DNA of 35,802 nucleotides from IMG/VR virus record IMGVR_UViG_2711768064_000002. One strand, written 5' to 3'. Below the pieces are notes generated by a model that was given only the letters and a program-made list of their open reading frames with translations, was not told the origin of the DNA and made no database searches. Below are positions 3,894 through 27,108 of this stretch, one piece after another. Positions within the stretch are counted from its first letter, which is position 1. Each line of letters starts with the position of its first letter. The DNA comes from a virus. Taxonomy: Duplodnaviria > Heunggongvirae > Uroviricota > Caudoviricetes. The position numbers and the translations under genes are program-made.

Positions 3894-4165
3894 GTATTCG
3901 TATTGAAATTGGCGAACGTTATGTCGTTACCAGTGACAGCTTTCAGTTTATTCTCCACGAGAAAAAGAGAGCGGAAAGCGGTAAAAACGCCGGTCAGGAA
4001 TGGCTGGCGGTGGTTGGTTATTACCCGAAATTAAGCCAGCTCGTTTCCGGCCTGATGCATCACGATATTCTGACCGGAAGCGCAAAGTCTTTTGCTGATT
4101 TAAACGCGCAGGTTGAGCAACTCAGCAAGCGTTGTTCAGAGGCTTTTGGCTCATATGGCCGTTAA
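3890..4165 (+). CDS. Early hypothetical protein (P2 orf83-like), 91 aa
   Basis: ORF directly upstream of and overlapping the A start. Confidence 0.6.
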   Translation: MSIRIEIGERYVVTSDSFQFILHEKKRAESGKNAGQEWLAVVGYYPKLSQLVSGLMHHDILTGSAKSFADLNAQVEQLSKRCSEAFGSYGR

Positions 4166-6431
4166 AGCCTCCGGGCGTTTTGTCCCTCCGTCAGCATTTG
4201 CCGCAGGCACCGGTAAGACGTTTACCGGTGCTTATGCATGGAACGCGCCACGCGAGGCTGTCGGGCGCGAAAGACCCCTTACACGTGACGAGATGCGTCA
4301 GGTGCAAGGTGTTTTATCCACGATTAATCGCCAGCCTTACTTTTTGCGCTCGCTGTTTACTTCACGCTATGACTACATCCGGCGCAATAAAAGCCCGGTG
4401 CACGGGTTTTATTTCCTCACATCCACTTTTCAGCGTCGTTTATGGCCGCGCATTGAGCGCGTTAATCAGCGCCATGAAATGAACACCGACGCGTCGTTGC
4501 TGTTTCTGGCAGAGCGTGACCACTATGCGCGCCTGCCTGGAATGAATGACAAGGAGCTGAAAAAGTTTGCCGCCCGTATCTCATCGCAGCTTTTCATAAT
4601 GTATGAGGAACTCTGCGATGCCTGGGTGGATGCGCATGGCGAGAAAGAATCGCTGTTTACGGATGAGGCGCAGGCTCACCTGTATGGTCATGTTGCTGGC
4701 GCTGCACGTGCTTTCAATATTTCCCCGCTCTACTGGAAAAAATACCGTAAAGGACAGATGACCACGAGGCAGGCATATTCTGCCATTGCCCGCCTGTTTA
4801 ACGATGAGTGGTGGACTCATCAGCTTAAAGGCCAGCGTATGCGCTGGCATGAGGCGTTACTGATTGCTGTCGGGGAGGTCAATAAAGACCGTTCTCCTTA
4901 TGCCAGTAAACATGCCATTCGTGATGTGCGTGCACGCCGCCAGGCAAATCTGGAATTTCTTAAATCGTGTGACCTTGAAAACAGGGAAACCGGCGAGCGC
5001 ATCGACCTTATCAGTAAGGTGATGGGCAGTATTTCTAATCCTGAAATTCGCCGGATGGAGCTGATGAACACCATTGCCGGTATTGAGCGTTACGCCGCAG
5101 CAGAGGGTGATGTGGGGATGTTTATCACGCTGACCGCGCCGTCAAAGTATCACCCGACACGTCAGGTCGGAAAAGGCGAAAGTAAAACCGTCCAGCTAAA
5201 TCACGGCTGGAACGATGAGGCATTTAATCCAAAGGATGCGCAGCGTTATCTCTGCCATATCTGGAGCCTGATGCGCACGGCATTCAAGGATAATGATTTA
5301 CAGGTCTACGGTTTGCGTGTCGTCGAGCCACACCACGACGGAACGCCGCACTGGCATATGATGCTTTTTTGTAATCCACGCCAGCGTAACCAGATTATTG
5401 AAATCATGCGTCGCTATGCGCTCAAAGAGGATGGCGACGAAAGAGGAGCCGCGCGAAACCGTTTTCAGGCAAAACACCTTAACCGGGGCGGTGCTGCGGG
5501 ATATATCGCGAAATACATCTCAAAAAACATCGACGGCTATGCACTGGATGGTCAGCTCGATAATGATACCGGTAGGCCGCTGAAAGACACAGCTGCGGCT
5601 GTTACCGCATGGGCGTCAACGTGGCGCATTCCGCAATTTAAAACGGTTGGTCTGCCGACAATGGGGGCTTACCGTGAACTACGCAAATTGCCTCGCGGCG
5701 TCAGCATTGCTGATGAGTTTGACGAGCGCGTCGAGGCTGCACGCGCCGCTGCAGACAGTGGTGATTTTGCGTTGTATATCAGCGCGCAGGGCGGGGCAAA
5801 TGTCCCGCGCGATTGTCAGACTGTCAGGGTCGCCCGTAGCCCGTCGGATGACGTTAACGAGTACGAGGAAGAAGTCGAGAGAGTGGTCGGCATTTACGCG
5901 CCGCATCTCGGCGCGCGTCATATTCATATCACCAGAACGACGGACTGGCGCATTGTTCCGAAAGTGCCGGTCGTTGAGCCTTTGACTTTAAAAAGCGGCA
6001 TCGCCGCGCCTCGGAGTCCTGTCAATAACTGTGGAAAGCTCACCGGTGGTGATACTTCGTTACCGGCTCCCACACCTTCTGAGCACGCCGCAGCCGTGCT
6101 TAATCTGGTTGATGACGGTGTTATCGAATGGAATGACCCGGAGGTCGTGAGGGCGCTCAGGGGCGCATTAAAACACGGCCTGAGAACACCAAACCGTCAG
6201 CAAAGAAACGGAAGCCCGTTAAAACCGAATGAAATAGCGCCATCGGCCAGGCTGACCCGGTCGGAGCGTATGCAAATTACCCGTATCCGCGTTGACCTTG
6301 CTCAGAACGGTATCAGGCCGCAGCGATGGGAGCTTGAGGCGCTGGCGCGTGGCGCGACCGTAAATTATTACGGGAAATCTTTCAATTATCAGGTCGCTGA
6401 TGAGTGGCCTGGATTTTTGTTACCCATTTGA
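4155..6431 (+). CDS. A: Replication initiator A (rolling-circle HUH endonuclease), about 758 aa; ORF opens at 4113
   Basis: Long ORF; HUH-type motif HHDGTPHWHMMLF and downstream GYIAKYISKNIDGY (catalytic Tyr region). Start at MAVKASGRF chosen from recalled P2 gpA N-terminus. Confidence 0.9.
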   Translation: MAVKASGRFVPPSAFAAGTGKTFTGAYAWNAPREAVGRERPLTRDEMRQVQGVLSTINRQPYFLRSLFTSRYDYIRRNKSPVHGFYFLTSTFQRRLWPRIERVNQRHEMNTDASLLFLAERDHYARLPGMNDKELKKFAARISSQLFIMYEELCDAWVDAHGEKESLFTDEAQAHLYGHVAGAARAFNISPLYWKKYRKGQMTTRQAYSAIARLFNDEWWTHQLKGQRMRWHEALLIAVGEVNKDRSPYASKHAIRDVRARRQANLEFLKSCDLENRETGERIDLISKVMGSISNPEIRRMELMNTIAGIERYAAAEGDVGMFITLTAPSKYHPTRQVGKGESKTVQLNHGWNDEAFNPKDAQRYLCHIWSLMRTAFKDNDLQVYGLRVVEPHHDGTPHWHMMLFCNPRQRNQIIEIMRRYALKEDGDERGAARNRFQAKHLNRGGAAGYIAKYISKNIDGYALDGQLDNDTGRPLKDTAAAVTAWASTWRIPQFKTVGLPTMGAYRELRKLPRGVSIADEFDERVEAARAAADSGDFALYISAQGGANVPRDCQTVRVARSPSDDVNEYEEEVERVVGIYAPHLGARHIHITRTTDWRIVPKVPVVEPLTLKSGIAAPRSPVNNCGKLTGGDTSLPAPTPSEHAAAVLNLVDDGVIEWNDPEVVRALRGALKHGLRTPNRQQRNGSPLKPNEIAPSARLTRSERMQITRIRVDLAQNGIRPQRWELEALARGATVNYYGKSFNYQVADEWPGFLLPI

Positions 6432-6690
6432 GTAAAAATGCAGCGTGATTTTATATGCCTTTGAATGGGTTATGCGAAGCGCCTCTAAGGCAGATGAGGA
6501 GCAATAGCATGCTGAAGTAGAAGGCTAAATTGTATTGAATCGCTAGCATGTAATTTAAAGCAGCTATTTGATTCGAGTCATAAAAGAGCATCTATTTCGG
6601 CTAATAAAACCATTGCGAGTGACCTTTTGTCGAAGCATAATTCATCTCGAGCGAAGTCTTGCTAGTCTTTCATCGGAATGATGACAGGCG

Positions 6691-6722
6691 CAAAAAAACC
6701 ACCCTGGCAGGTGGTTTTTTTG
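6691..6722. terminator. Bidirectional rho-independent terminator
   Basis: aaaaaaaccaccctggcaggtggttttttt: GC stem flanked by an A-run and a T-run, so it can terminate on either strand. Confidence 0.7.
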
Positions 6723-6733
6723 TTTGAAGCATA

Positions 6734-6847
6734 CTAAAGAATAATACTTACATGGATATTACTGACGTTTACTGACAAACCACTTGGACTACCATATGGA
6801 TAGCCAAAGAGGGCCAGAACGAGAATGCAGTAATAGCACTTCTTCAT
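6734..6847 (-). CDS. 37-aa hydrophobic small protein (MKKCYYCILVLALFGYPYGSPSGLSVNVSNIHVSIIL)
   Basis: Not in the ORF track (under 60 aa). Preceded by SD-like aggagg (rc of 6851..6856) and followed by the 6691..6722 terminator. Function unknown. Confidence 0.4.
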   Translation of the reverse strand: MKKCYYCILVLALFGYPYGSPSGLSVNVSNIHVSIIL

Positions 6848-7419
6848 ATCTCCTCCTGTAAGCAGAGGGCAATTTCCGCCGATATATGCGCTTCTAAGGC
6901 GGAGTTACTATTTAGCGAAGTCTTGCCCTGAAATAATGCTCTGTTTAAACGCAAAGTGATCTGGCATATCACCGAACAGAGAGCCTGAACAACACAACAT
7001 ATAGTATGTCGTTGTTTCTGGTTGCATTTTATGTTGTGTAATCCTGGTTTTGCATCAAGGATGTTTGAGCTTTTTTTGATATAGCTCAAAGTAAAAAGCA
7101 GAGACTACGGATGATAAGGTATTGAAAGCAATGTAAATTTTTTAAAGTTATTGGCGGCTAAAAAATGCACGGTTTCAATATGGTGGACTTAAATAAGCAA
7201 TTAAAAAAGTCATAAATATCACTAAAATCATGGTGTTACGTTTTTTTTGTGGGAGCTGCGGTGACGCTTAAGTTGATTTGTCATTAAATAAGCCGTGCAT
7301 GCAACAAGTGAATGTTTTTGCATGCGTCGGGGATGCCCGTTCCGGCTGCTTGCGGTCAGAGCTGGTGCGGATCCATAGTATCTATGCAACTGCATTAAAA
7401 CCGCCACATGAAGCGGGCG

Positions 7420-7438
7420 GGCGAGGCGGGGAAAGCAC
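7420..7438. other. cos cohesive-end site (GGCGAGGCGGGGAAAGCAC)
   Basis: Exact match to the 19-nt P2/186 cohesive-end sequence as I recall it; sits between A and Q as expected in the prophage. Confidence 0.8.
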
Positions 7439-7592
7439 TGCGCGCAAAATGTTCTTGAAATATTTGTGACATAAGCTAAGACACAAAATGATTGAAGGGC
7501 AGAGCAAATCCTACAGTCCTATGCTATTGTCTCATGTAATGCAGATAAGTTGAAAATTATCTTAAAATATAAGAGTAAAGACATTAAAAGGA

Positions 7593-9860
7593 TTGGTTAT
7601 GAATAATAACTCTAAGTTATTAAGCTCTATCTCGGTTGAATCTGATTTCGAGAACCTTATAAAACTATATGCAAATGAGTTATTTGGTGGTGAAACATAT
7701 CTGATCGGTGGTCCTTGGGATAATGGAAAGGATTTGGTAATAAAAAAGGGGAATAGAGAGTTAAAGCAAGCTGTACAAATATCTATTCAAGAGAAAAATA
7801 TTGAAAGTAAGATTGCTCAAGATATTAAAAAAGTGGCGAAATTGGTTGATGATCATTATTACCCGCCTGTATTATATTTTTTTTGGAGTCATTCAATATC
7901 TGAGCATTTATTGGATAAGATAAGAACAAATGCTCTTAAGGAAGATTTGATTAGATTGGAGTTTTATGATGCCAAACGGATCTCTCAAGATATTACAGAT
8001 AAATACCCAGGGTTATTGAATTACTTAATAAAAGATATACATAAGATAAGTTCTAATACTGAAGATGCAATTAACTTGCAACAAAGAGCATTTTATGAAT
8101 ATTTATTGTTAAGCAAAGATAGTGCTAATTTAAAAAATGAAATAATAAAAGCTAGTATTATGTCTAATTTATATGATGGCGGGAAGTCTGCTGATGATAT
8201 TCTAGAGAATCTAAAAGGTGTTAGTCTTACAAAACGTAGTTTACAGGGTAGACTGCAAAACCTAATTCATCAAAATAAAATTAGATTGAATGATGGTATA
8301 TATAGCCTGTCACCAGAGGAAATTAAAAAGCTTGAGAATATAAATCTCCGTGAAATTGTCAGAAAAGAAGAGTTGTTATCAGTAATAAATAATGAGTTGC
8401 CCAGAAATACAAGTAAGAATCTGGCTGTTCAAGTTGTTGATTTAATAATAAAGGCTTATGAAGAATCAATAAATGTCCAATTAACAGAAAGTAAATTTGA
8501 GCCTCCAAAATTACAGATATTCAAAACTATAGTACATAATTTAAAGGTGTTGATACGGCAGGAATATGATTTGGATGATGAGTCTTCGGATGCTTTAGCA
8601 AAAAAGCTAATGGAGTTGGCTGGTCAAAATGACTATTTATCCGAGCATTGCTCTGCTAAATTATGTGTGAATCTTTTAAGTGATCGGAAATTAGAGAAAT
8701 ATATTGAAAATAAAAATTTTTATATCTACTTTGATGCGCCTGTTCTTATTCCATATTTGATAACTCTTATGTTTGGAGATTTTGAGCTTTTTGATAAGTC
8801 GATTAAAAATATAAATTTACTGAGAGAGTGCATAAATCCCCTCAAAAATAAACATCTGAGAGTTTCTAATGAACATTTTGAAGAAACTGCAAGGCACTAC
8901 TCTGAAGCTGAAAAATTAAGTCAGTTTGTAACTGAAGATTTAATTAGTCAACTTGGTGAGTCGAAAAATGTATACTTTAATGTTTATATGCGGTGGAAAA
9001 ACAAACAGCCTAAACGTACAGATTTTTACGATTTTACTTATGCTTTTCTAGGGTTGGATAAAGATGATATTTATGCGGGGTATAAGCATGACACATTTGC
9101 GCAATGCATTCATAATTTACTAGCGTCAGCAAATATTGTTGTAATTGATAATAAAGACTCGGTGTCACAAGACTTTGTATTTAAAATAAAGCAAAAACTT
9201 AAAAGGGATTTGAATTCTTCACGTCCCGTTCGAGCCATAGAAAATGATGTTATATGTGCTGCAACTTTGAGTGATGAAACCCTACATCTTGATTCCAATG
9301 GTTACTTCAGTACTCCCATGCTAATAACACTTGATAGATCTCAATATCTATTGAGAAGCATAGTAAGAAATGAAAGGAGACATGCTGAATGGTTGGTTTA
9401 TACCCCTCAAAGAGCAATTGAACGTCTTTCCTTGGTGGGTTTAAAAATATCATCGGAATCGTTAAAGGATGGTGTTTTAGCAACCATATCAGAAGAATAT
9501 TTCTTTAAAGAAAGTTCCAGTAGTTTGATTGATACTTTGGCTATTATCATTGGAGATAATCAAGCAAGGCAAGGAGATGTTATTAGGCTTGCATCGCTTT
9601 TAAAAAGAAAGGTCAATGAGGAATCTATTGAGAATTCAGAAATTGATATTGAACACTATAATAACATTAGTTATGTGCTTCTTTTCATTCATCGTGAATT
9701 TAAATCTGAATTTTCAAATATAATAAAAATTTTTGCTGAGGATAGTAGGCGAGATAAACTGGTTGAAGTTTTGTTATCCACTATTCAAGGAGTTTTTGAT
9801 GAGAGTAAAAAGGAAATCTTGCGCTCAAATATAGGACGGTTGTTGGCTGAAATGGGATGA
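7593..9860 (+). CDS. Cargo protein of unknown function, 755 aa, AT-rich; possible N-terminal PD-(D/E)xK/Mrr-like nuclease fold
   Basis: Long uninterrupted ORF with Lys/Asn/Ile-rich composition unlike the GC-rich phage backbone. Motif weakly similar to Mrr-type nuclease cores: DNGKDLVIKKGNRELKQAVQISIQEK. Possible Rx4H at RNERRH. Confidence 0.85.
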   Translation: MVMNNNSKLLSSISVESDFENLIKLYANELFGGETYLIGGPWDNGKDLVIKKGNRELKQAVQISIQEKNIESKIAQDIKKVAKLVDDHYYPPVLYFFWSHSISEHLLDKIRTNALKEDLIRLEFYDAKRISQDITDKYPGLLNYLIKDIHKISSNTEDAINLQQRAFYEYLLLSKDSANLKNEIIKASIMSNLYDGGKSADDILENLKGVSLTKRSLQGRLQNLIHQNKIRLNDGIYSLSPEEIKKLENINLREIVRKEELLSVINNELPRNTSKNLAVQVVDLIIKAYEESINVQLTESKFEPPKLQIFKTIVHNLKVLIRQEYDLDDESSDALAKKLMELAGQNDYLSEHCSAKLCVNLLSDRKLEKYIENKNFYIYFDAPVLIPYLITLMFGDFELFDKSIKNINLLRECINPLKNKHLRVSNEHFEETARHYSEAEKLSQFVTEDLISQLGESKNVYFNVYMRWKNKQPKRTDFYDFTYAFLGLDKDDIYAGYKHDTFAQCIHNLLASANIVVIDNKDSVSQDFVFKIKQKLKRDLNSSRPVRAIENDVICAATLSDETLHLDSNGYFSTPMLITLDRSQYLLRSIVRNERRHAEWLVYTPQRAIERLSLVGLKISSESLKDGVLATISEEYFFKESSSSLIDTLAIIIGDNQARQGDVIRLASLLKRKVNEESIENSEIDIEHYNNISYVLLFIHREFKSEFSNIIKIFAEDSRRDKLVEVLLSTIQGVFDESKKEILRSNIGRLLAEMG

Positions 9861-9875
9861 TTTCTTGGTTATTGA

Positions 9876-9910
9876 ACGGCACTATGGTCGTTGCTTATAG
9901 TGCCGTTTTA
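9876..9910. terminator. Stem-loop terminator between cargo gene and Q 3' end
   Basis: aacggcactat..atagtgccgtt 11-bp stem followed by tttt; lies between convergent genes. Confidence 0.65.
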
Positions 9911-9951
9911 AGGTGTCGTGCCATTATGAATGGCATATCCGAGTTTATATA

Positions 9952-10986
9952 TTAGGTATCGCAAGTATCTAGTGAGTAGTTTTTAAAGCGGATGACCTCC
10001 TGACCGAGCCAGCCGTTTATCTCGCGGATCCTGTCCTGTAACGGGATAAGCTCATTGCGGACAAAGACCTTTGCCACTTTCTCAATATCGCCCAGTGACC
10101 CGACGTTCTCCGGCTTGCCGCCCATCAACTGAAAGGGGATGCGGTGCGCGTCCAGTAGGTCAGCGGCGCTGGCTTTTTTGATATTAAAAAAATCGTCCTT
10201 CGTTGCGACTTCACTGAGCGGGATAATTTTAATGCCGTCGGCTTTCCCCTGTGGGGCATAGAGAAACAGATTTTTAAAGTTGTTGCGGCCTTTCGACTTC
10301 ACCATGTTTTCGCGGAGCATTTCGATATCGTTGCGATCCTGCACGGCATCAGTGACGTACATGATGTATCCGGCATGTGCGCCGTTTTCGTAATACTTGC
10401 GGCGGAACAGCGTGGCCGACTCATTCAGCCAGGCAGAGTTAAGGGCGCTGAGATATTCCGGCAGGCCGTACAACTCCTGATTAATATCCGGCTCCAGCAG
10501 GTGAAACACGGAGCCGGGCGCGAAGGCTGTCGGTTCGTTGAAGGACGGCACCCACCAGTAAACATCCTCTTCCACCCCACGGCGGGTATATTTTGCCGGT
10601 GAGGTTTCCAGTCTGATGACCTTACCGGTGGTGCTGTAACGCTTTTCCAGAAACGCATTACCGAACACCAGAAAATCCAGCACAAAGCGGCTGAAATCCT
10701 GTTGTGAAAGCCACGGATGCGGGATAAATGTCGAGGCCAGAATATTACGTTTGACGTAAATCGGTGAGCTGTGATGTACGGCAGCACGCAGGCTTTTTGC
10801 CAGACCGGTAAAGCTGACCGGTGGCTCATACCATCTGCCGTTACTGATGCACTCGACGTAATCCAGAATGTCACGGCGGTCGAGTACCGGCACCGGCTCA
10901 CCAAAGGTGAATGCCTCCATTTTCGGGGCGCTGGCGGTGATTGTTTTTGCCGCAGGTTGCGGTGTTTTCCCTTTTTTCTTGCTCAT
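9952..10986 (-). CDS. Q: Portal protein Q, 344 aa
   Basis: Size identical to P2 Q; leftward late operon next to cos; start overlaps P stop. Confidence 0.92.
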   Translation of the reverse strand: MSKKKGKTPQPAAKTITASAPKMEAFTFGEPVPVLDRRDILDYVECISNGRWYEPPVSFTGLAKSLRAAVHHSSPIYVKRNILASTFIPHPWLSQQDFSRFVLDFLVFGNAFLEKRYSTTGKVIRLETSPAKYTRRGVEEDVYWWVPSFNEPTAFAPGSVFHLLEPDINQELYGLPEYLSALNSAWLNESATLFRRKYYENGAHAGYIMYVTDAVQDRNDIEMLRENMVKSKGRNNFKNLFLYAPQGKADGIKIIPLSEVATKDDFFNIKKASAADLLDAHRIPFQLMGGKPENVGSLGDIEKVAKVFVRNELIPLQDRIREINGWLGQEVIRFKNYSLDTCDT

Positions 10987-19234: not shown

Positions 19235-20308
19235 TTACTTTCCATTTTTTAATGAATTGATTAACGATGCTATTTGCTCAATGCCATCAAATGTAGATGG
19301 TATCTTATCATCGGATAGCATGATGTTTGAAAATACTACGTCTTCGAATTTTGAAAGCGCTTCCGGATTGTTTTTCCTTATCTCTGAGGAATAGTCGCTA
19401 TAACTCTGAATGAACTGACAAAGGCTCTTTCTGAGTTCTATTTGCATAATCTGAGTTCGTAACGATATATGATTTAGCAGTACAACTCTAAAGTAATACA
19501 TGAAAATCAATGTAACTGATGCAAAAGGTAGTGCTGACATAAAATATGTGGCAGCATTTGTCGTTTCGAGAGTTGGTAATTTATGCATTCCATAGTATAT
19601 CAGCGGGGAGGGAATGATTATAGCCAAGATGATAAGAATTATTCTTGATAGCATGATTTCACTTTCTTTCTTTTTGCCAAGTGAATTAAAGCCTTCAAAC
19701 AATCCAACAAAATTAAATGCGACCTCATACCCTTTTAATGACTCTTTAATTGACTCTATTTTGGCATGTTGCTCCTTTAAGAAGGAGTCGCACTTTTCGA
19801 AAAATTGACGCCCTTCGTTTAAACTATCAATGTATTTTTTATATGTGTCAACATTGCTGGAGCTTAAAACTTCTTTAACCATTGCTAATGGCAGTTCTCT
19901 AAGAGAAAAGTCTATCTGTGCTCTGCTCCGCTCATCGAATTCATTATAGTTATACAGAGCAAAATCCTTGATGGTTCTTAGTGGTGAAAAGTGAGACTCT
20001 ATTTCCGGAGAGAGAATGCTTGGTTCAATGATAAATCTAAAAAAGCAAGTAAATATAAGGTTGATGCTGTTGTTATCTTCTCCCTTCTCTCTTAAGAAAC
20101 TTTTAAAGGTGTCGCCAATCATAGCAATGTTGTACTGGGATTTTTTGTCCCAATCTTCAGGGTTTTCGGAAATGAAGTTTATTGCTTGAGCAATTATTTT
20201 GTTTCTGTTTGATTCAAAGTTTGTGCTGGGAGTCAGCGTGTTCAAAAAGACCAGATAATCTTTGAACAATTCTTTCATTGTTTCTGACGAGAAAAAGTAA
20301 GTACTCAT
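19235..20308 (-). CDS. AT-rich cargo membrane protein with two predicted TM helices, about 357 aa; ORF opens at 20404 (389 aa)
   Basis: Soluble N-terminal region then hydrophobic helices IMLSRIILIILAIIIPSPLIYYGM and FMSALPFASVTLIFMYYFRVVLL. Start at MSTYFF (20308) preferred because the 20404 start overlaps the V start. Confidence 0.8.
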   Translation of the reverse strand: MSTYFFSSETMKELFKDYLVFLNTLTPSTNFESNRNKIIAQAINFISENPEDWDKKSQYNIAMIGDTFKSFLREKGEDNNSINLIFTCFFRFIIEPSILSPEIESHFSPLRTIKDFALYNYNEFDERSRAQIDFSLRELPLAMVKEVLSSSNVDTYKKYIDSLNEGRQFFEKCDSFLKEQHAKIESIKESLKGYEVAFNFVGLFEGFNSLGKKKESEIMLSRIILIILAIIIPSPLIYYGMHKLPTLETTNAATYFMSALPFASVTLIFMYYFRVVLLNHISLRTQIMQIELRKSLCQFIQSYSDYSSEIRKNNPEALSKFEDVVFSNIMLSDDKIPSTFDGIEQIASLINSLKNGK

Positions 20309-20394
20309 AATGGATTTTGTTGTCCCTTGTTGTTCTGTGCACCAGAAATCATGGTGTGATTTACTTCGAGATAGTACAGAATCATTATTATCGA
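20309..20394. promoter_or_regulatory. Late promoter region upstream of V (PV); likely also holds the cargo gene promoter
   Basis: Intergenic between divergent cargo gene and V; TGT-rich element ttgttgtcccttgttgttctgtgcacc. Inferred from P2 organisation. Confidence 0.45.
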
Positions 20395-21024
20395 ATGAAT
20401 GCACAATACAATGAAATTCTTCGCTTTATACGCAATATGATTCGCACTGGCATTATCGTCGAAACCGACCTTAATGCCGGTCGCTGCCGTGTGCAGACCG
20501 GCGGCATGTGCACCGACTGGCTTCAGTGGCTGACCCATCGCGCCGGGCGTTCGCGCACATGGTGGGCACCTTCCGTGGGGGAACAGGTGCTGATTCTGGC
20601 CGTGGGTGGTGAACTCGACACGGCGTTCGTTCTGCCGGGGATTTATTCCGGCGATAACCCCGCGCCGTCTGCGTCGGCGGATGCCCTGCATATCCGTTTC
20701 CCTGACGGGGCGGTGATTGAATATGAACCCGAAACCAGTGCACTCATGGTAAGCGGAATTAAAACGGCCAGCGTGACGGCTTCTGATTCTGTTACTGCCA
20801 CGGTGCCGGTGGTCATGGTGAAAGCATCAACCCGCATCACCCTGGACACACCGGAGGTGGTCTGCACCAACAGGCTGATTACCGGCACGCTGGAAGTGCA
20901 GAAGGGCGGGACGATGCGCGGCAACATTGAACACACCGGCGGTGAACTCTCATCAAACGGTAAGGTACTGCATACCCATAAACACCCCGGCGACAGCGGC
21001 GGCACAACCGGGAGTCCTCTATGA
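20395..21024 (+). CDS. V: Baseplate spike/assembly protein V, about 209 aa; ORF opens at 20317
   Basis: NMIRTGIIVETDLNAGRCRVQTGGMCTDWLQWL recognised as P2 V. Confidence 0.9.
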   Translation: MNAQYNEILRFIRNMIRTGIIVETDLNAGRCRVQTGGMCTDWLQWLTHRAGRSRTWWAPSVGEQVLILAVGGELDTAFVLPGIYSGDNPAPSASADALHIRFPDGAVIEYEPETSALMVSGIKTASVTASDSVTATVPVVMVKASTRITLDTPEVVCTNRLITGTLEVQKGGTMRGNIEHTGGELSSNGKVLHTHKHPGDSGGTTGSPL

Positions 21025-25668: not shown

Positions 25669-27108
25669 ATGGGAAATCACGATTTTATTAAATATATTAT
25701 ATTATTTGGCTTGTCTGGGATAATGTTGGCTATGCTAGTGCTCTTTATTTCCTCTGTAGCATATTATTTTTTCACCCATAATAAAGGAGTTCTTCAGTAT
25801 ATAATTAAAACTATTTCCATAGGCCTTGTAACTATTCCAGTCGCAATAATACTAATCGTTGCACTCGTCCATTATGTTGTCTGGCAAAAAGGGATTTCAA
25901 CGGCATGGCGTTTTATATTCCACTCGACTAAAACAACAACCGTGAATGATATTGCTAATGCTGAATCAGAAGATGTTATTGTTCACCTTGTTCATGGAAC
26001 ATTCGAGACGAATGCATCTTGGACACAACCTGAGTCAAAAATGTGCAAATCAATTAACTCAAGGAATCCCAATATTGGTATATCTCGATTTAAATGGGAT
26101 GGCAAAAACTCTGCATCCTCTCGTAAACAAGCGGCATATCAATTAGGAATGCATATTGATAACTCTCCTGCAAAATACAATTATATTATTGCACATAGCC
26201 ATGGGGCAGCTATTGTAAGAGAAATGTCTTATTTACGAAGTGATATTGCAAAAAAAATTCAAGGCGTATGTCTTTTGTCACCACCGTTCATCTTTCGACG
26301 TAGGATAAAAAGAACGTCAGGTGCTTTAATTAATCTTATTGATATTAGCGGAACTTTGGCCATTCAATTGTTACTTGCAGTATTTTTTGTACCTTTGAAT
26401 CTATATAATATTAATTATGCAGCAGTAATTTTTTTTGTTTCAATATTTGCAGAAATTATAATCTCCAAAAAATATAAAAAAGAATTTTTGCAGGAAGTTG
26501 AGAGTGGCGAGCACTGTGAAGCGGTTGATTTTAGGAATGTTGAAATTTATCACGCAATTGGTGATGAAGCCGATTCAGGCCTAAGATTTGTAAGTTCACT
26601 TCACGAAGGATGTTTTGCAATTCTTTCCCAGCTAAAAAAAGCTCAAGTAAGTCATAAAAAGCTAACACATTGGTCAGCAGTTTTAAGCTACCTATTTTAT
26701 ATTTCCATGAGTGTATTAATATGGTTCTTCTATCCTGAAGAAAAATCATGGATTATAGTATTATTAGTAAGCTTTGTATTAACTTCTATTTCTCACATTT
26801 GGCAAAGGTTGAAACCATCAAAGGATGTTCCTCATGTTTTACTTATTGCAGCAATACCAGTTGCGATTTTTTCATTTTGGTTGGCTGTAGCTAAGGCCAT
26901 AGCTTATGGAGATTTGCGATTAATATTTTGCCCGGAAGTTTTTATTGCATCATCTGAAACTCCAGCTGGAGATCATAAAGTTATTAAATTTGCTCCACAG
27001 AATGATGGTATATTAATACACTCAACACACTCGCATCCGGAGGCTATAATTAATGTTTCTGAATGGTTATATTGCTCTGAGAATAAAAGGGTAAATGGTG
27101 AATCATAG
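25669..27108 (+). CDS. AT-rich cargo polytopic membrane protein with serine-hydrolase-like motifs, 479 aa
   Basis: N-terminal TM helices, then VIVHLVHGTFE (HG oxyanion-like) and IIAHSHGAAIV (GxSxG-like elbow), further TM segments, C-terminal ILIHSTHSH. Occupies the Z/fun position between G and FI. Confidence 0.85.
   Translation: MGNHDFIKYIILFGLSGIMLAMLVLFISSVAYYFFTHNKGVLQYIIKTISIGLVTIPVAIILIVALVHYVVWQKGISTAWRFIFHSTKTTTVNDIANAESEDVIVHLVHGTFETNASWTQPESKMCKSINSRNPNIGISRFKWDGKNSASSRKQAAYQLGMHIDNSPAKYNYIIAHSHGAAIVREMSYLRSDIAKKIQGVCLLSPPFIFRRRIKRTSGALINLIDISGTLAIQLLLAVFFVPLNLYNINYAAVIFFVSIFAEIIISKKYKKEFLQEVESGEHCEAVDFRNVEIYHAIGDEADSGLRFVSSLHEGCFAILSQLKKAQVSHKKLTHWSAVLSYLFYISMSVLIWFFYPEEKSWIIVLLVSFVLTSISHIWQRLKPSKDVPHVLLIAAIPVAIFSFWLAVAKAIAYGDLRLIFCPEVFIASSETPAGDHKVIKFAPQNDGILIHSTHSHPEAIINVSEWLYCSENKRVNGES

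What the first reader, a model, noticed from the sequence alone, without database searches (positions are those of the whole stretch)
7593..9860. Large AT-rich cargo gene (755 aa) between cos and the portal gene: candidate single-gene anti-phage system
In P2 the portal gene Q lies close to cos, and the accessory genes tin/old sit between A and cos. Here the A-to-cos interval has no long ORF, and a 2.3-kb gene sits between cos (7420..7438) and the Q 3' end. Its composition is strongly AT-rich against a GC-rich backbone, with its own terminator (9876..9910), so it looks like a horizontally acquired moron. P2-like prophage variable loci are known hotspots for defence genes. The N-terminus has a motif weakly resembling a PD-(D/E)xK/Mrr-type nuclease core, and a possible Rx4H (RNERRH) lies further in. 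I cannot assign it to any family I know.
Basis: partly seen in the sequence, partly recalled or inferred. Interest (0 to 1): 0.85.

Follow-up and report, generated by a model that had tools for sequence, protein, structure and literature searches.

The report
Two-nuclease defence candidate in prophage
A real, horizontally acquired 753-residue gene next to the cos site of a P2-like prophage encodes an uncharacterised protein with a restriction-enzyme-like domain, a DNA-binding winged helix and an intact PIN nuclease; it is very probably a single-gene anti-phage immunity protein, which a published machine-learning screen has already flagged but nobody has tested.

Summary
The ORF at 7593..9860 is real, though its true start is probably the ATG at 7599 (753 aa, RefSeq WP_053286240.1, 'hypothetical'). 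It has 31.6% GC in a 53-60% GC P2-like prophage. It lies between an exact P2 cos site (7420-7438) and the portal gene, and a strong terminator hairpin follows it.

A near-identical prophage has only about 175 bp at this position, and another carries an AriA-like ATPase pair there. The cargo module is therefore 7446-9963, in a slot whose contents differ between related prophages.

- an N-terminal Mrr-like PD-(D/E)xK fold;
- a winged helix;
- a PIN domain whose acidic tetrad D379/E429/D550/D579 is conserved down to 15% identity.

The family has about 500 clusters at 50% identity and never has a conserved neighbouring gene. In some members the Mrr-like module is replaced by a DUF4062/TIR-like NADase domain or by a possibly HEPN-like module. 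Swapping of this kind is typical of immune sensor-effector proteins.

DefensePredictor (Science 2026, Table S10) lists this exact protein as a predicted, untested defence gene with log-odds 13.

Verdict: a well-supported but unvalidated single-gene defence candidate. It is a new domain combination within a known kind of system.

The parts
7420..7438 (.). P2-type cos site (19-nt cohesive end), the left border of the slot
   Evidence: Exact GGCGAGGCGGGGAAAGCAC. The same site lies upstream of the homologue in L010, L011 and L001, and variants with 2-3 mismatches occur in L002, L014 and L008. Its identity with the P2 cos sequence rests on my own knowledge.
7446..9963 (+). Cargo module (moron): the AT-rich segment that replaces ~175 bp of GC-rich spacer found in an otherwise near-identical prophage
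   Evidence: Against the Ecol_AZ159 prophage (L021), BLASTN homology ends at window 7445 (100% over 146 bp) and resumes at 9964. L021 has only ~175 bp between cos and the portal gene. GC is 0.28-0.35.
7588..7592 (+). Ribosome-binding site AAGGA, 6 nt before the ATG
   Evidence: Read directly from the sequence. An (A/G)AGGA or GGAG motif is conserved upstream of the homologues.
7599..9860 (+). Coding sequence, 753 aa plus stop (WP_053286240.1)
   Evidence: It has 46 close clusters and 499 clusters at 50% identity. dN is 0.20-0.59 with dS saturated.
7599..8003 (+). Residues 1-135: Mrr-like PD-(D/E)xK-fold domain. D41, G43, D45, Q60, K71 and D124 are invariant; the canonical Lys position is S62.
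8076..8309 (+). Residues 160-237: winged helix-turn-helix, with K179 nearly invariant
8313..8678 (+). Residues 239-360: five long helices linking the winged helix to the PIN domain
   Evidence: AlphaFold2 model, helices 239-266, 276-298, 305-323, 327-342 and 345-360.
8712..9443 (+). Residues 372-615: PIN nuclease domain with helical insertions. The acidic tetrad is D379, E429, D550 and D579; N457 is also invariant.
9453..9857 (+). Residues 619-753: C-terminal all-helical domain of unknown role; D645 is at least 90% conserved
   Evidence: Model; conservation.
9874..9912 (+). Intrinsic terminator hairpin and U run
   Evidence: -18.7 kcal/mol, z = -3.96.
9952..10986 (-). Portal gene Q, the right border of the slot. 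Its last three codons and its stop lie inside the cargo module.
4113..6431 (+). Replication gene A, the left flank of the hotspot locus

Best explanation
The gene encodes a stand-alone anti-phage immunity protein carried as cargo in the cos-proximal hotspot of a P2-like prophage.

The protein is one chain with five parts: an N-terminal Mrr-like nuclease-fold module, a winged helix that binds nucleic acid, a long helical linker, a catalytically intact PIN nuclease and a helical C-terminal domain. I infer that it is held inactive in the lysogen. On infection by another phage, the conserved core (winged helix, linker, PIN, C-terminal helices) would recognise a phage-derived nucleic acid or protein cue. 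The protein would then degrade nucleic acid: RNA or structured DNA through the PIN site, and DNA through the Mrr-like module if that site is active. This would stop the infection, probably at the cost of the infected cell.

Shown here: the gene is real, horizontally acquired, under purifying selection and single-gene; the three folds; conservation of the PIN tetrad (three residues invariant, D379 at least 90%); the hotspot position; and the swapping of the N-terminal module for a TIR-like domain in sister proteins.

Inferred: the defence phenotype, autoinhibition, the trigger, the substrates, and which domain is sensor and which is effector.
For: 1. **Hotspot position with variable occupancy.** The published P2 defence hotspot is gpA-cos-gpQ (PMC9122126). 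The same cos-Q slot is empty in Ecol_AZ159 and holds an AAA ATPase matching PDC-M29A (2e-31) and AriA (7e-26) plus a small ORF in E24377A. Homologues sit in the A-Q locus of at least two other, divergent P2-like prophages: Rahnella L002 (gpA 55% identical) and L014 (gpA 59% identical). In L014 the gene lies on the other side of cos, with a PDC-S49-like gene across cos from it.
2. **Mobility and single-gene status.** Homologues occur in integrase/IS/resolvase islands of Vibrio, Pseudomonas and Klebsiella, at a 186-like prophage edge in Pantoea, and on an IncFII conjugative plasmid. None has a conserved partner. All copies keep 28-33% GC whatever the host.
4. **Active-site conservation.** E429, N457, D550 and D579 are invariant and D379 is at least 90% conserved across 95 members down to 15% identity.
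6. **Independent prediction.** DefensePredictor lists this exact accession with mean log-odds 13.06, against a strict cut-off of 4, as a 'Predicted novel defense gene'.
7. **Retention in a decayed prophage.** In strain 1218KP the prophage has lost most of A, the terminase and the head and tail genes, yet the cargo gene is 100% intact.
8. **Precedent.** One-protein PIN systems without an antitoxin defend E. coli, and their catalytic residues are required (DS-3).
Against: - There is no phenotype for any family member.
- No PADLOC model matches, and there is no hit in 50,697 sequenced phages.
- The Mrr-like motif lacks the canonical Lys (S62 here; Thr in 80 of 95 members and Ser in 6), so that module may not cleave DNA.
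- No consensus sigma-70 promoter was found between cos and the ATG, so expression in the lysogen is unproven.
- DefensePredictor's overall validation rate was 45%, and its score partly reuses the same context signal.
- Some DUF4062-type members lie inside polysaccharide-synthesis loci rather than recognisable defence islands.
- The division into sensor and effector is inference from architecture only.
Confidence: 0.6

Rival explanations
1. This reverses the proposed roles but is still defence. The PIN domain is the constant effector, an RNase cutting tRNA, rRNA or mRNA as VapC does. The N-terminal Mrr-like module would be a catalytically dead sensor that binds DNA or DNA ends, as in Shedu, where one nuclease core is regulated by diverse N-terminal sensor domains.
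For: The PIN tetrad is the most conserved feature of the family. The canonical Lys of the Mrr-like motif is missing in most members (Thr in 80 of 95, Ser in 6). A preprint found in the literature search describes Shedu nucleases as sharing a common enzymatic core regulated by diverse sensor domains (title; I did not read the paper). DS-3 shows that a lone PIN can be the essential catalytic part of a one-protein system.
Against: The alternative N-terminal modules are classic effectors, not sensors: DUF4062 is a NADase with its Glu-Tyr motif retained, and the third type may be HEPN. D41, D45, Q60, K71, D75, K78 and D124 of the Mrr-like module are invariant or nearly so, which suggests a working site of some kind.
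Confidence: 0.25
2. The protein is a Type IV-like, modification-dependent restriction enzyme. The winged helix would read modified or otherwise foreign DNA and the Mrr-like domain would cut it directly, without cell death. The PIN domain would be accessory.
Against: The domain order is the reverse of Mrr. The canonical Lys is absent. Sister proteins replace the nuclease with a TIR-like NADase on the same core, which cannot restrict DNA and so argues for a sensor-effector, abortive logic. The intact PIN tetrad is left unexplained.
Confidence: 0.1
3. The gene is not a defence gene. It could be a prophage-stabilising toxin, a nuclease used by the phage itself (host takeover, recombination, anti-satellite or anti-defence), or selfish cargo with no benefit to the host.
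Against: No antitoxin-like neighbour is conserved in any context. The gene is absent from near-identical functional-looking prophages, so the phage does not need it. It occurs outside phages, in chromosomal islands and polysaccharide loci. The plasmid copy is on the opposite strand to the leading-region genes.
Confidence: 0.08
4. The ORF is a chance ORF or a decaying pseudogene.
For: It is AT-rich and annotated only as 'hypothetical'.
Against: The chance of an open frame this long is 2e-30, and the other frames are full of stops. The family has 499 clusters with conserved length and catalytic residues. The structure model is confident.
Confidence: 0.01

Closest known systems
DS-3 (DefensePredictor; WP_022645725.1), a validated one-protein PIN defence system of E. 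coli
   Same: A single gene with a PIN nuclease interrupted by a large helical insertion and no cognate antitoxin; presumed to be autoinhibited. Its catalytic residues are required for defence.
   Different: DS-3 is 340 aa with no Mrr-like domain and no winged helix. hhalign of the 95-sequence family profile against DS-3 gives Prob below 1%. The same holds for the PIN protein of DS-5.
Swarozyc and Evangelion (single-gene DUF4062/TIR-like NADase plus AUX sensor; 2026 preprints)
   Same: The logic is one protein with an N-terminal effector and a C-terminal sensing region that starts with an HTH or winged-helix element. A sister subfamily of the present family carries DUF4062 at the N-terminus.
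   Different: The window protein has an Mrr-like module instead of DUF4062. Its constant region contains an intact PIN nuclease, whereas the Evangelion authors say the AUX regions of both Eva01 and KpSwz lack recognisable conserved domains; they call Eva01's AUX compact, and the Swarozyc authors describe KpSwz AUX as an HTH/winged fold. Homology of the AUX regions could not be tested because I had no sequences.
N-terminal Mrr-like nuclease effectors of Avs4 and of Type ISP enzymes (LlaBIII); Mrr/AspBHI/MspJI Type IV enzymes
   Different: There is no STAND or helicase ATPase. The catalytic Lys is replaced by Ser/Thr. The window protein does not reach any Pfam Mrr_cat score, and only 7 of 60 relatives give weak hits.
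VapC-type PIN toxins and Pfam PIN_12 / DUF4935 (Matelska et al. 2017, PMC5499597)
   Same: The PIN fold, the D-E-D-D tetrad, the long helical insert after strand 2 and monocistronic genes.
   Different: The domain is embedded in a 753-aa multidomain protein with no antitoxin. The only PIN_12 hit is one weak match in a distant member (E 0.0055, below the cut-off).
P2 old and tin (classical cargo of the same locus)
   Same: Accessory phage-exclusion genes carried between gene A and gene Q next to cos (PMC9122126).
   Different: They are unrelated proteins. In P2 they lie on the A side of cos (own knowledge), whereas this gene lies on the Q side. The family occurs on either side in different phages.

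Membership tests
PD-(D/E)xK / Mrr_cat (PF04471) | alpha-beta-beta-beta-alpha-beta restriction-endonuclease fold | tested here: met
PD-(D/E)xK / Mrr_cat (PF04471) | Sequence match to the Pfam model at its gathering score | tested here: not met
   The window protein gives no hit. Seven of 60 relatives give hits at E 0.0076 or weaker.
PD-(D/E)xK / Mrr_cat (PF04471) | Catalytic D ... (D/E/Q)-x-K triad | tested here: inconclusive
   D45 and Q60 are invariant, but the Lys position is S62 (Thr in 80 of 95 members, Ser in 6). K71 on the next helix is invariant and might substitute. I could not superpose coordinates to check this.
PIN domain (VapC-like; PIN_12/DUF4935) | PIN fold | tested here: met
PIN domain (VapC-like; PIN_12/DUF4935) | Four conserved acidic residues (D-E-D-D) | tested here: met
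   E429, D550 and D579 are invariant and D379 is at least 90% conserved in 95 sequences down to 15% identity.
PIN domain (VapC-like; PIN_12/DUF4935) | Pfam PIN_12 match at the gathering score | tested here: not met
   The only hit is P0189, E 0.0055, 17.5 bits against a cut-off of 32.
PIN domain (VapC-like; PIN_12/DUF4935) | Metal-dependent nuclease activity | not testable with these tools
   This needs a biochemical assay.
VapBC-type toxin-antitoxin module | Adjacent cognate antitoxin gene | tested here: not met
   No conserved neighbour in the window or in loci L002-L009, L014, L019 and L023.
Any system in PADLOC-DB v2.0.0 | HMM match | tested here: not met
   No families matched at E up to 10.
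DS-3 / DS-5 (validated PIN defence systems) | Detectable homology | tested here: not met
   hhalign Prob 0.6% and 0.5%.
Swarozyc / Evangelion | DUF4062 (TIR-like) effector domain | tested here: not met
   The window protein has an Mrr-like module. DUF4062 is present only in a sister subfamily.
Swarozyc / Evangelion | Homologous AUX sensor region | not tested
   The sequences of KpSwz and Eva01 were not available to the tools.
Mrr-type Type IV restriction enzyme | N-terminal winged helix followed by C-terminal Mrr_cat; modification-dependent cleavage | tested here: not met
   The domain order is reversed (nuclease fold 1-135, winged helix 160-237). Dependence on DNA modification cannot be tested with these tools.
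P2 cos-proximal defence hotspot cargo (Rousset et al. 2022) | Lies between gpA and gpQ next to cos, in a slot whose content varies between related prophages | tested here: met
   The slot is empty in L021, holds an AriA-like pair in L022 and holds this gene in the window.
   The His of RNERRH varies among close homologues (RRE-IRG, RSF-YPS, and others) and is not a consensus residue in the 95-sequence alignment.

The most novel reading that the evidence does not exclude
The family could be a modular immune scaffold in which a catalytically active PIN nuclease acts as the sensor. It would recognise or process a phage-specific RNA or DNA structure and thereby license interchangeable N-terminal executioner modules: an Mrr-like DNase here, a TIR-like NADase or a HEPN-like RNase in sister proteins. 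That would be a one-protein, ATPase-free counterpart of the Avs and Lamassu logic, in which a nuclease reaction is the recognition step.
Probability: 0.2. Interest if true: 0.75.

Novelty: new variant of a known kind. Interest (0 to 1): 0.55.

Why it matters
If the family is validated, it would add a widespread single-gene immunity family (about 500 clusters at 50% identity, from Enterobacterales, Vibrio and Pseudomonas to far more distant sequences that I did not place taxonomically). Its domain combination (Mrr-like fold, winged helix, PIN) is absent from Pfam and from PADLOC v2.0.0 (2023).

The natural exchange of the N-terminal module (nuclease fold, TIR-like NADase, possibly HEPN) on a constant PIN-containing core offers a ready-made experiment on how sensing is coupled to different effectors. 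It also links the newly described DUF4062 systems to a nuclease-bearing scaffold.

It further shows that the cos-Q side of the P2 hotspot, not only the A-cos side, exchanges cargo.

Tried and rejected
- **HEPN reading of RNERRH.** The motif is not conserved and lies in a PIN helix.
- **Toxin-antitoxin pair.** No conserved neighbour exists. The 91-aa ORF downstream in Vibrio is absent elsewhere.
- **Menshen NsnC.** Its PIN-like domains lack the catalytic residues and it needs NsnA/B ATPases. There is also no PADLOC hit.
- **Homology to DS-3 or DS-5.** hhalign is negative.
- **New P4/P2 systems of the 2026 preprint** (Crouga, Bandua, Aernus, Toga, Reve, Hailong). None has this architecture.
- **Sequence searches of the PDB.** Neither the full-length profile nor the N-terminal profile found anything meaningful.
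- **Foldseek of the whole model against the PDB.** No match at E 0.001 or better, so no solved structure resembles the whole chain.
- **Foldseek against AFDB50.** The library was unavailable.
- **tblastn against 50,697 phage genomes.** No hit.
- **Promoter scan and upstream alignment.** No convincing sigma-70 promoter in the window. A TTGACT-17-TATATT site exists upstream of only one homologue group.
- **Rfam scan of 6300-10100.** Only chance-level hits.
- **dN/dS.** dS is saturated for all but one pair (0.16 for Vibrio), so it gives only qualitative support for purifying selection.
Full report
**Observation.** The window is a complete P2-like prophage lying between yegR and trhP. The ORF reported at 7593..9860 exists. 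Its TTG is probably not the start: the ATG at 7599 has AAGGA six bases upstream, and RefSeq annotates that 753-aa product as WP_053286240.1, 'hypothetical protein'. The gene has 31.6% GC, while the neighbouring phage genes have 52-60%. Given its own composition, an open frame of this length has probability 2e-30, and the other five frames carry 35-118 stops. The 19-mer GGCGAGGCGGGGAAAGCAC lies at 7420-7438. A hairpin at 9874-9908 followed by U's folds at -18.7 kcal/mol (z = -3.96). The interval between gene A and cos has no ORF above 81 aa, and it is conserved without any annotation in 148 complete E. coli genomes.

**Limits of the cargo.** The prophage of strain Ecol_AZ159 is 100% identical to the window over the last 146 bp up to position 7445, and similar again from 9964. 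Between those points it has only ~175 bp of GC-rich spacer before the portal gene. The acquired module is therefore 7446-9963. In E24377A the same slot holds an AAA ATPase that matches the PADLOC models PDC-M29A (2e-31) and AriA (7e-26), plus a 145-aa ORF. Among related prophages the cos-Q slot is thus empty, filled with this gene, or filled with a defence-like ATPase pair. Rousset et al. described the whole gpA-cos-gpQ locus as the P2 defence hotspot (PMC9122126). [quoted passage not shown]

**Family and contexts.** Only 1 of 5426 complete E. coli genomes carries the gene. There it sits in a heavily deleted prophage whose A and terminase genes are fragments, yet the cargo gene is intact. The word-indexed search found 46 clusters of ~753 aa in Enterobacterales, Vibrio, Aeromonas, Shewanella and Pseudomonas, all unnamed and without Pfam domains. 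A profile search of 1.84 billion representatives found 499 clusters at E 0.001 or better, mostly 750-780 aa and matching end to end.

- Homologues occupy the A-Q locus of at least two other divergent P2-like prophages. In Rahnella the gene is on the Q side of cos. In L014 it is on the A side, with a PDC-S49-like P-loop gene across cos.
- One homologue lies at the CI-side edge of a 186-like prophage in Pantoea.
- Others lie in islands with integrases, IS elements or resolvases in Vibrio, P. aeruginosa and K. aerogenes, and in a small island in Aeromonas.
- One lies in the leading region of an IncFII conjugative plasmid of Raoultella, on the opposite strand to its neighbours.

No neighbour is shared between these contexts. 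All copies have 28-33% GC regardless of host, dN is 0.2-0.6, and dS is saturated.

- **Residues ~160-237** match winged-helix regulators: SmtB, MotA, PadR and MarR.

Foldseek finds no solved structure that resembles the whole chain.

Across 95 members down to 15% identity, the invariant residues are E429, N457, D550, D579 and P603, with D379 at least 90% conserved. D379, E429, D550 and D579 form the PIN acidic tetrad, and they sit in the typical PIN sequence contexts (LDT.vL, ND....a.L, T.D).

The N-terminal module conserves D41, G43, D45, Q60, K71 and D124, which resembles the Mrr motifs DGGxD ... Q-x-K. The Lys position, however, is Ser here and Thr in 80 of 95 members. Seven of 60 relatives give weak Mrr_cat hits, and DefensePredictor's HHblits reports a Type IV Mrr domain at Prob 97.1 over 18% of the protein. 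The PIN site therefore looks active, while the activity of the Mrr-like site is open.

- **Helical type.** A second alternative is a ~190-aa helical module with a conserved RNx(x)VHNSP motif and one weak HEPN_Apea hit (E 0.0033). This assignment is tentative.

Exchange of effector-type modules on a constant core is the pattern seen in immune sensor-effector proteins. It argues that the constant part (winged helix, helical linker, PIN, C-terminal helices) carries recognition and regulation, possibly with a nuclease activity of its own.

**Prior knowledge.** The exact accession appears in Table S10 of DefensePredictor (Science 2026, PMC13092281) among 1,041 uncharacterised predicted defence clusters of the E. 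coli pangenome. Its mean log-odds is 13.06 (sd 0.98; strict cut-off 4). It is not among the cloned systems DS-1 to DS-45. That study validated two PIN-containing systems, including the one-protein DS-3 whose catalytic residues are essential. Neither is detectably related to this family.

**Mechanism.** I consider it most likely (about 0.75) that this is an anti-phage gene. More specifically, and with lower confidence, I propose an autoinhibited one-chain nuclease that is activated by a cue from an infecting phage and then degrades nucleic acid, probably aborting the infection. Which domain senses and which one kills is unresolved. The main rival reverses the roles (PIN as effector, Mrr-like module as a dead sensor, as in Shedu). 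A Type IV-like direct restriction mechanism is less likely because sister proteins carry a NADase instead of the nuclease fold. Non-defence roles are disfavoured: near-identical prophages lack the gene, it has no antitoxin, and it occurs outside phages.

**Unknowns.** There is no phenotype. The promoter was not identified. The trigger, substrates and oligomeric state are unknown. I could not inspect model coordinates, run HHpred or search AFDB50.

**Verdict.** This is a real, well-delimited moron that encodes a member of an unnamed, widespread family with a new combination of known defence-type domains. The gene is a good candidate for experiment, but it is not a surprise for this locus and it has already been flagged computationally, so I rate interest as moderate.

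Noticed in passing
window 19235-20404 (-): A second AT-rich cargo ORF (389 aa, GC ~0.36) lies between tail-completion gene S and baseplate gene V. It has no Pfam or PADLOC hit and is present in 60 of 5426 complete E. coli genomes as 'hypothetical'. In the Rahnella prophage the ORF directly after gene S (the locus ends before any V gene) is a PtuA/PDC-M01A-like ATPase (E 6e-135 and 2e-154), so the position downstream of S is also variable.
   Followed up: partly
window 25669-27108 (+): A third AT-rich cargo ORF (479 aa) lies between tail-fibre assembly gene G and sheath gene FI, the classical Z/fun position. Its only hit is a weak Ser_hydrolase match (E 0.0014), with no PADLOC hit. It is present in only 2 of 5426 complete E. 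coli genomes.
   Followed up: partly
window 6440-7400, especially 6733-6846 (-) and 6690-6722: The ~1-kb spacer between gene A and cos is conserved in 148 genomes with no annotated feature. It contains a 37-codon minus-strand ORF (MKKCYYCILVLALFGYPYG...) with a perfect AGGAGG ribosome-binding site. This is followed by a strong bidirectional hairpin terminator (AAAAAAACCACCCTGGCAGGTGGTTTTTTT). It might encode a small hydrophobic protein or toxin. Rfam gave only sub-threshold RNAI-like hits there.
   Followed up: partly
L001 (E. coli 1218KP, NZ_CM173878.1 1768236-1778313): The only complete E. coli genome with this gene carries it in a heavily deleted prophage. Gene A and the terminase gene are fragments and most head and tail genes are gone, with an IS3 next to the integrase, yet the cargo gene is 100% intact.
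   Followed up: yes
L014 11090-12793 (+): In this IMG/VR P2-like prophage the homologue lies on the A side of cos. A 567-aa P-loop protein (Walker A motif GDWGVGKT) matching the PADLOC candidate PDC-S49 (1.5e-22) fills the cos-Q side. Both sides of cos therefore take cargo.
   Followed up: yes
L019 9001-11442, L020 6809-9250; the contig carrying P0199: The DUF4062-bearing members of the family sit inside polysaccharide (capsule or O-antigen-like) biosynthesis gene clusters. One sits next to a SIR2_2 protein. This is an unusual location for a defence-type gene.
   Followed up: no
L023 7001-9262 (Raoultella terrigena IncFII plasmid NZ_CP062917.1): A 65%-identical homologue lies in the leading region of a conjugative plasmid, among ssb, an anti-restriction gene, DNA methylases and umuDC. 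It is on the opposite strand to those genes.
   Followed up: partly
all homologue loci (L002, L003, L007, L008, L009, L014): Every copy of the gene has 28-33% GC, whether its host is Vibrio, Aeromonas, Klebsiella, Pantoea or Rahnella. The low GC seems to be a property of the family rather than a mark of one recent donor.
   Followed up: no
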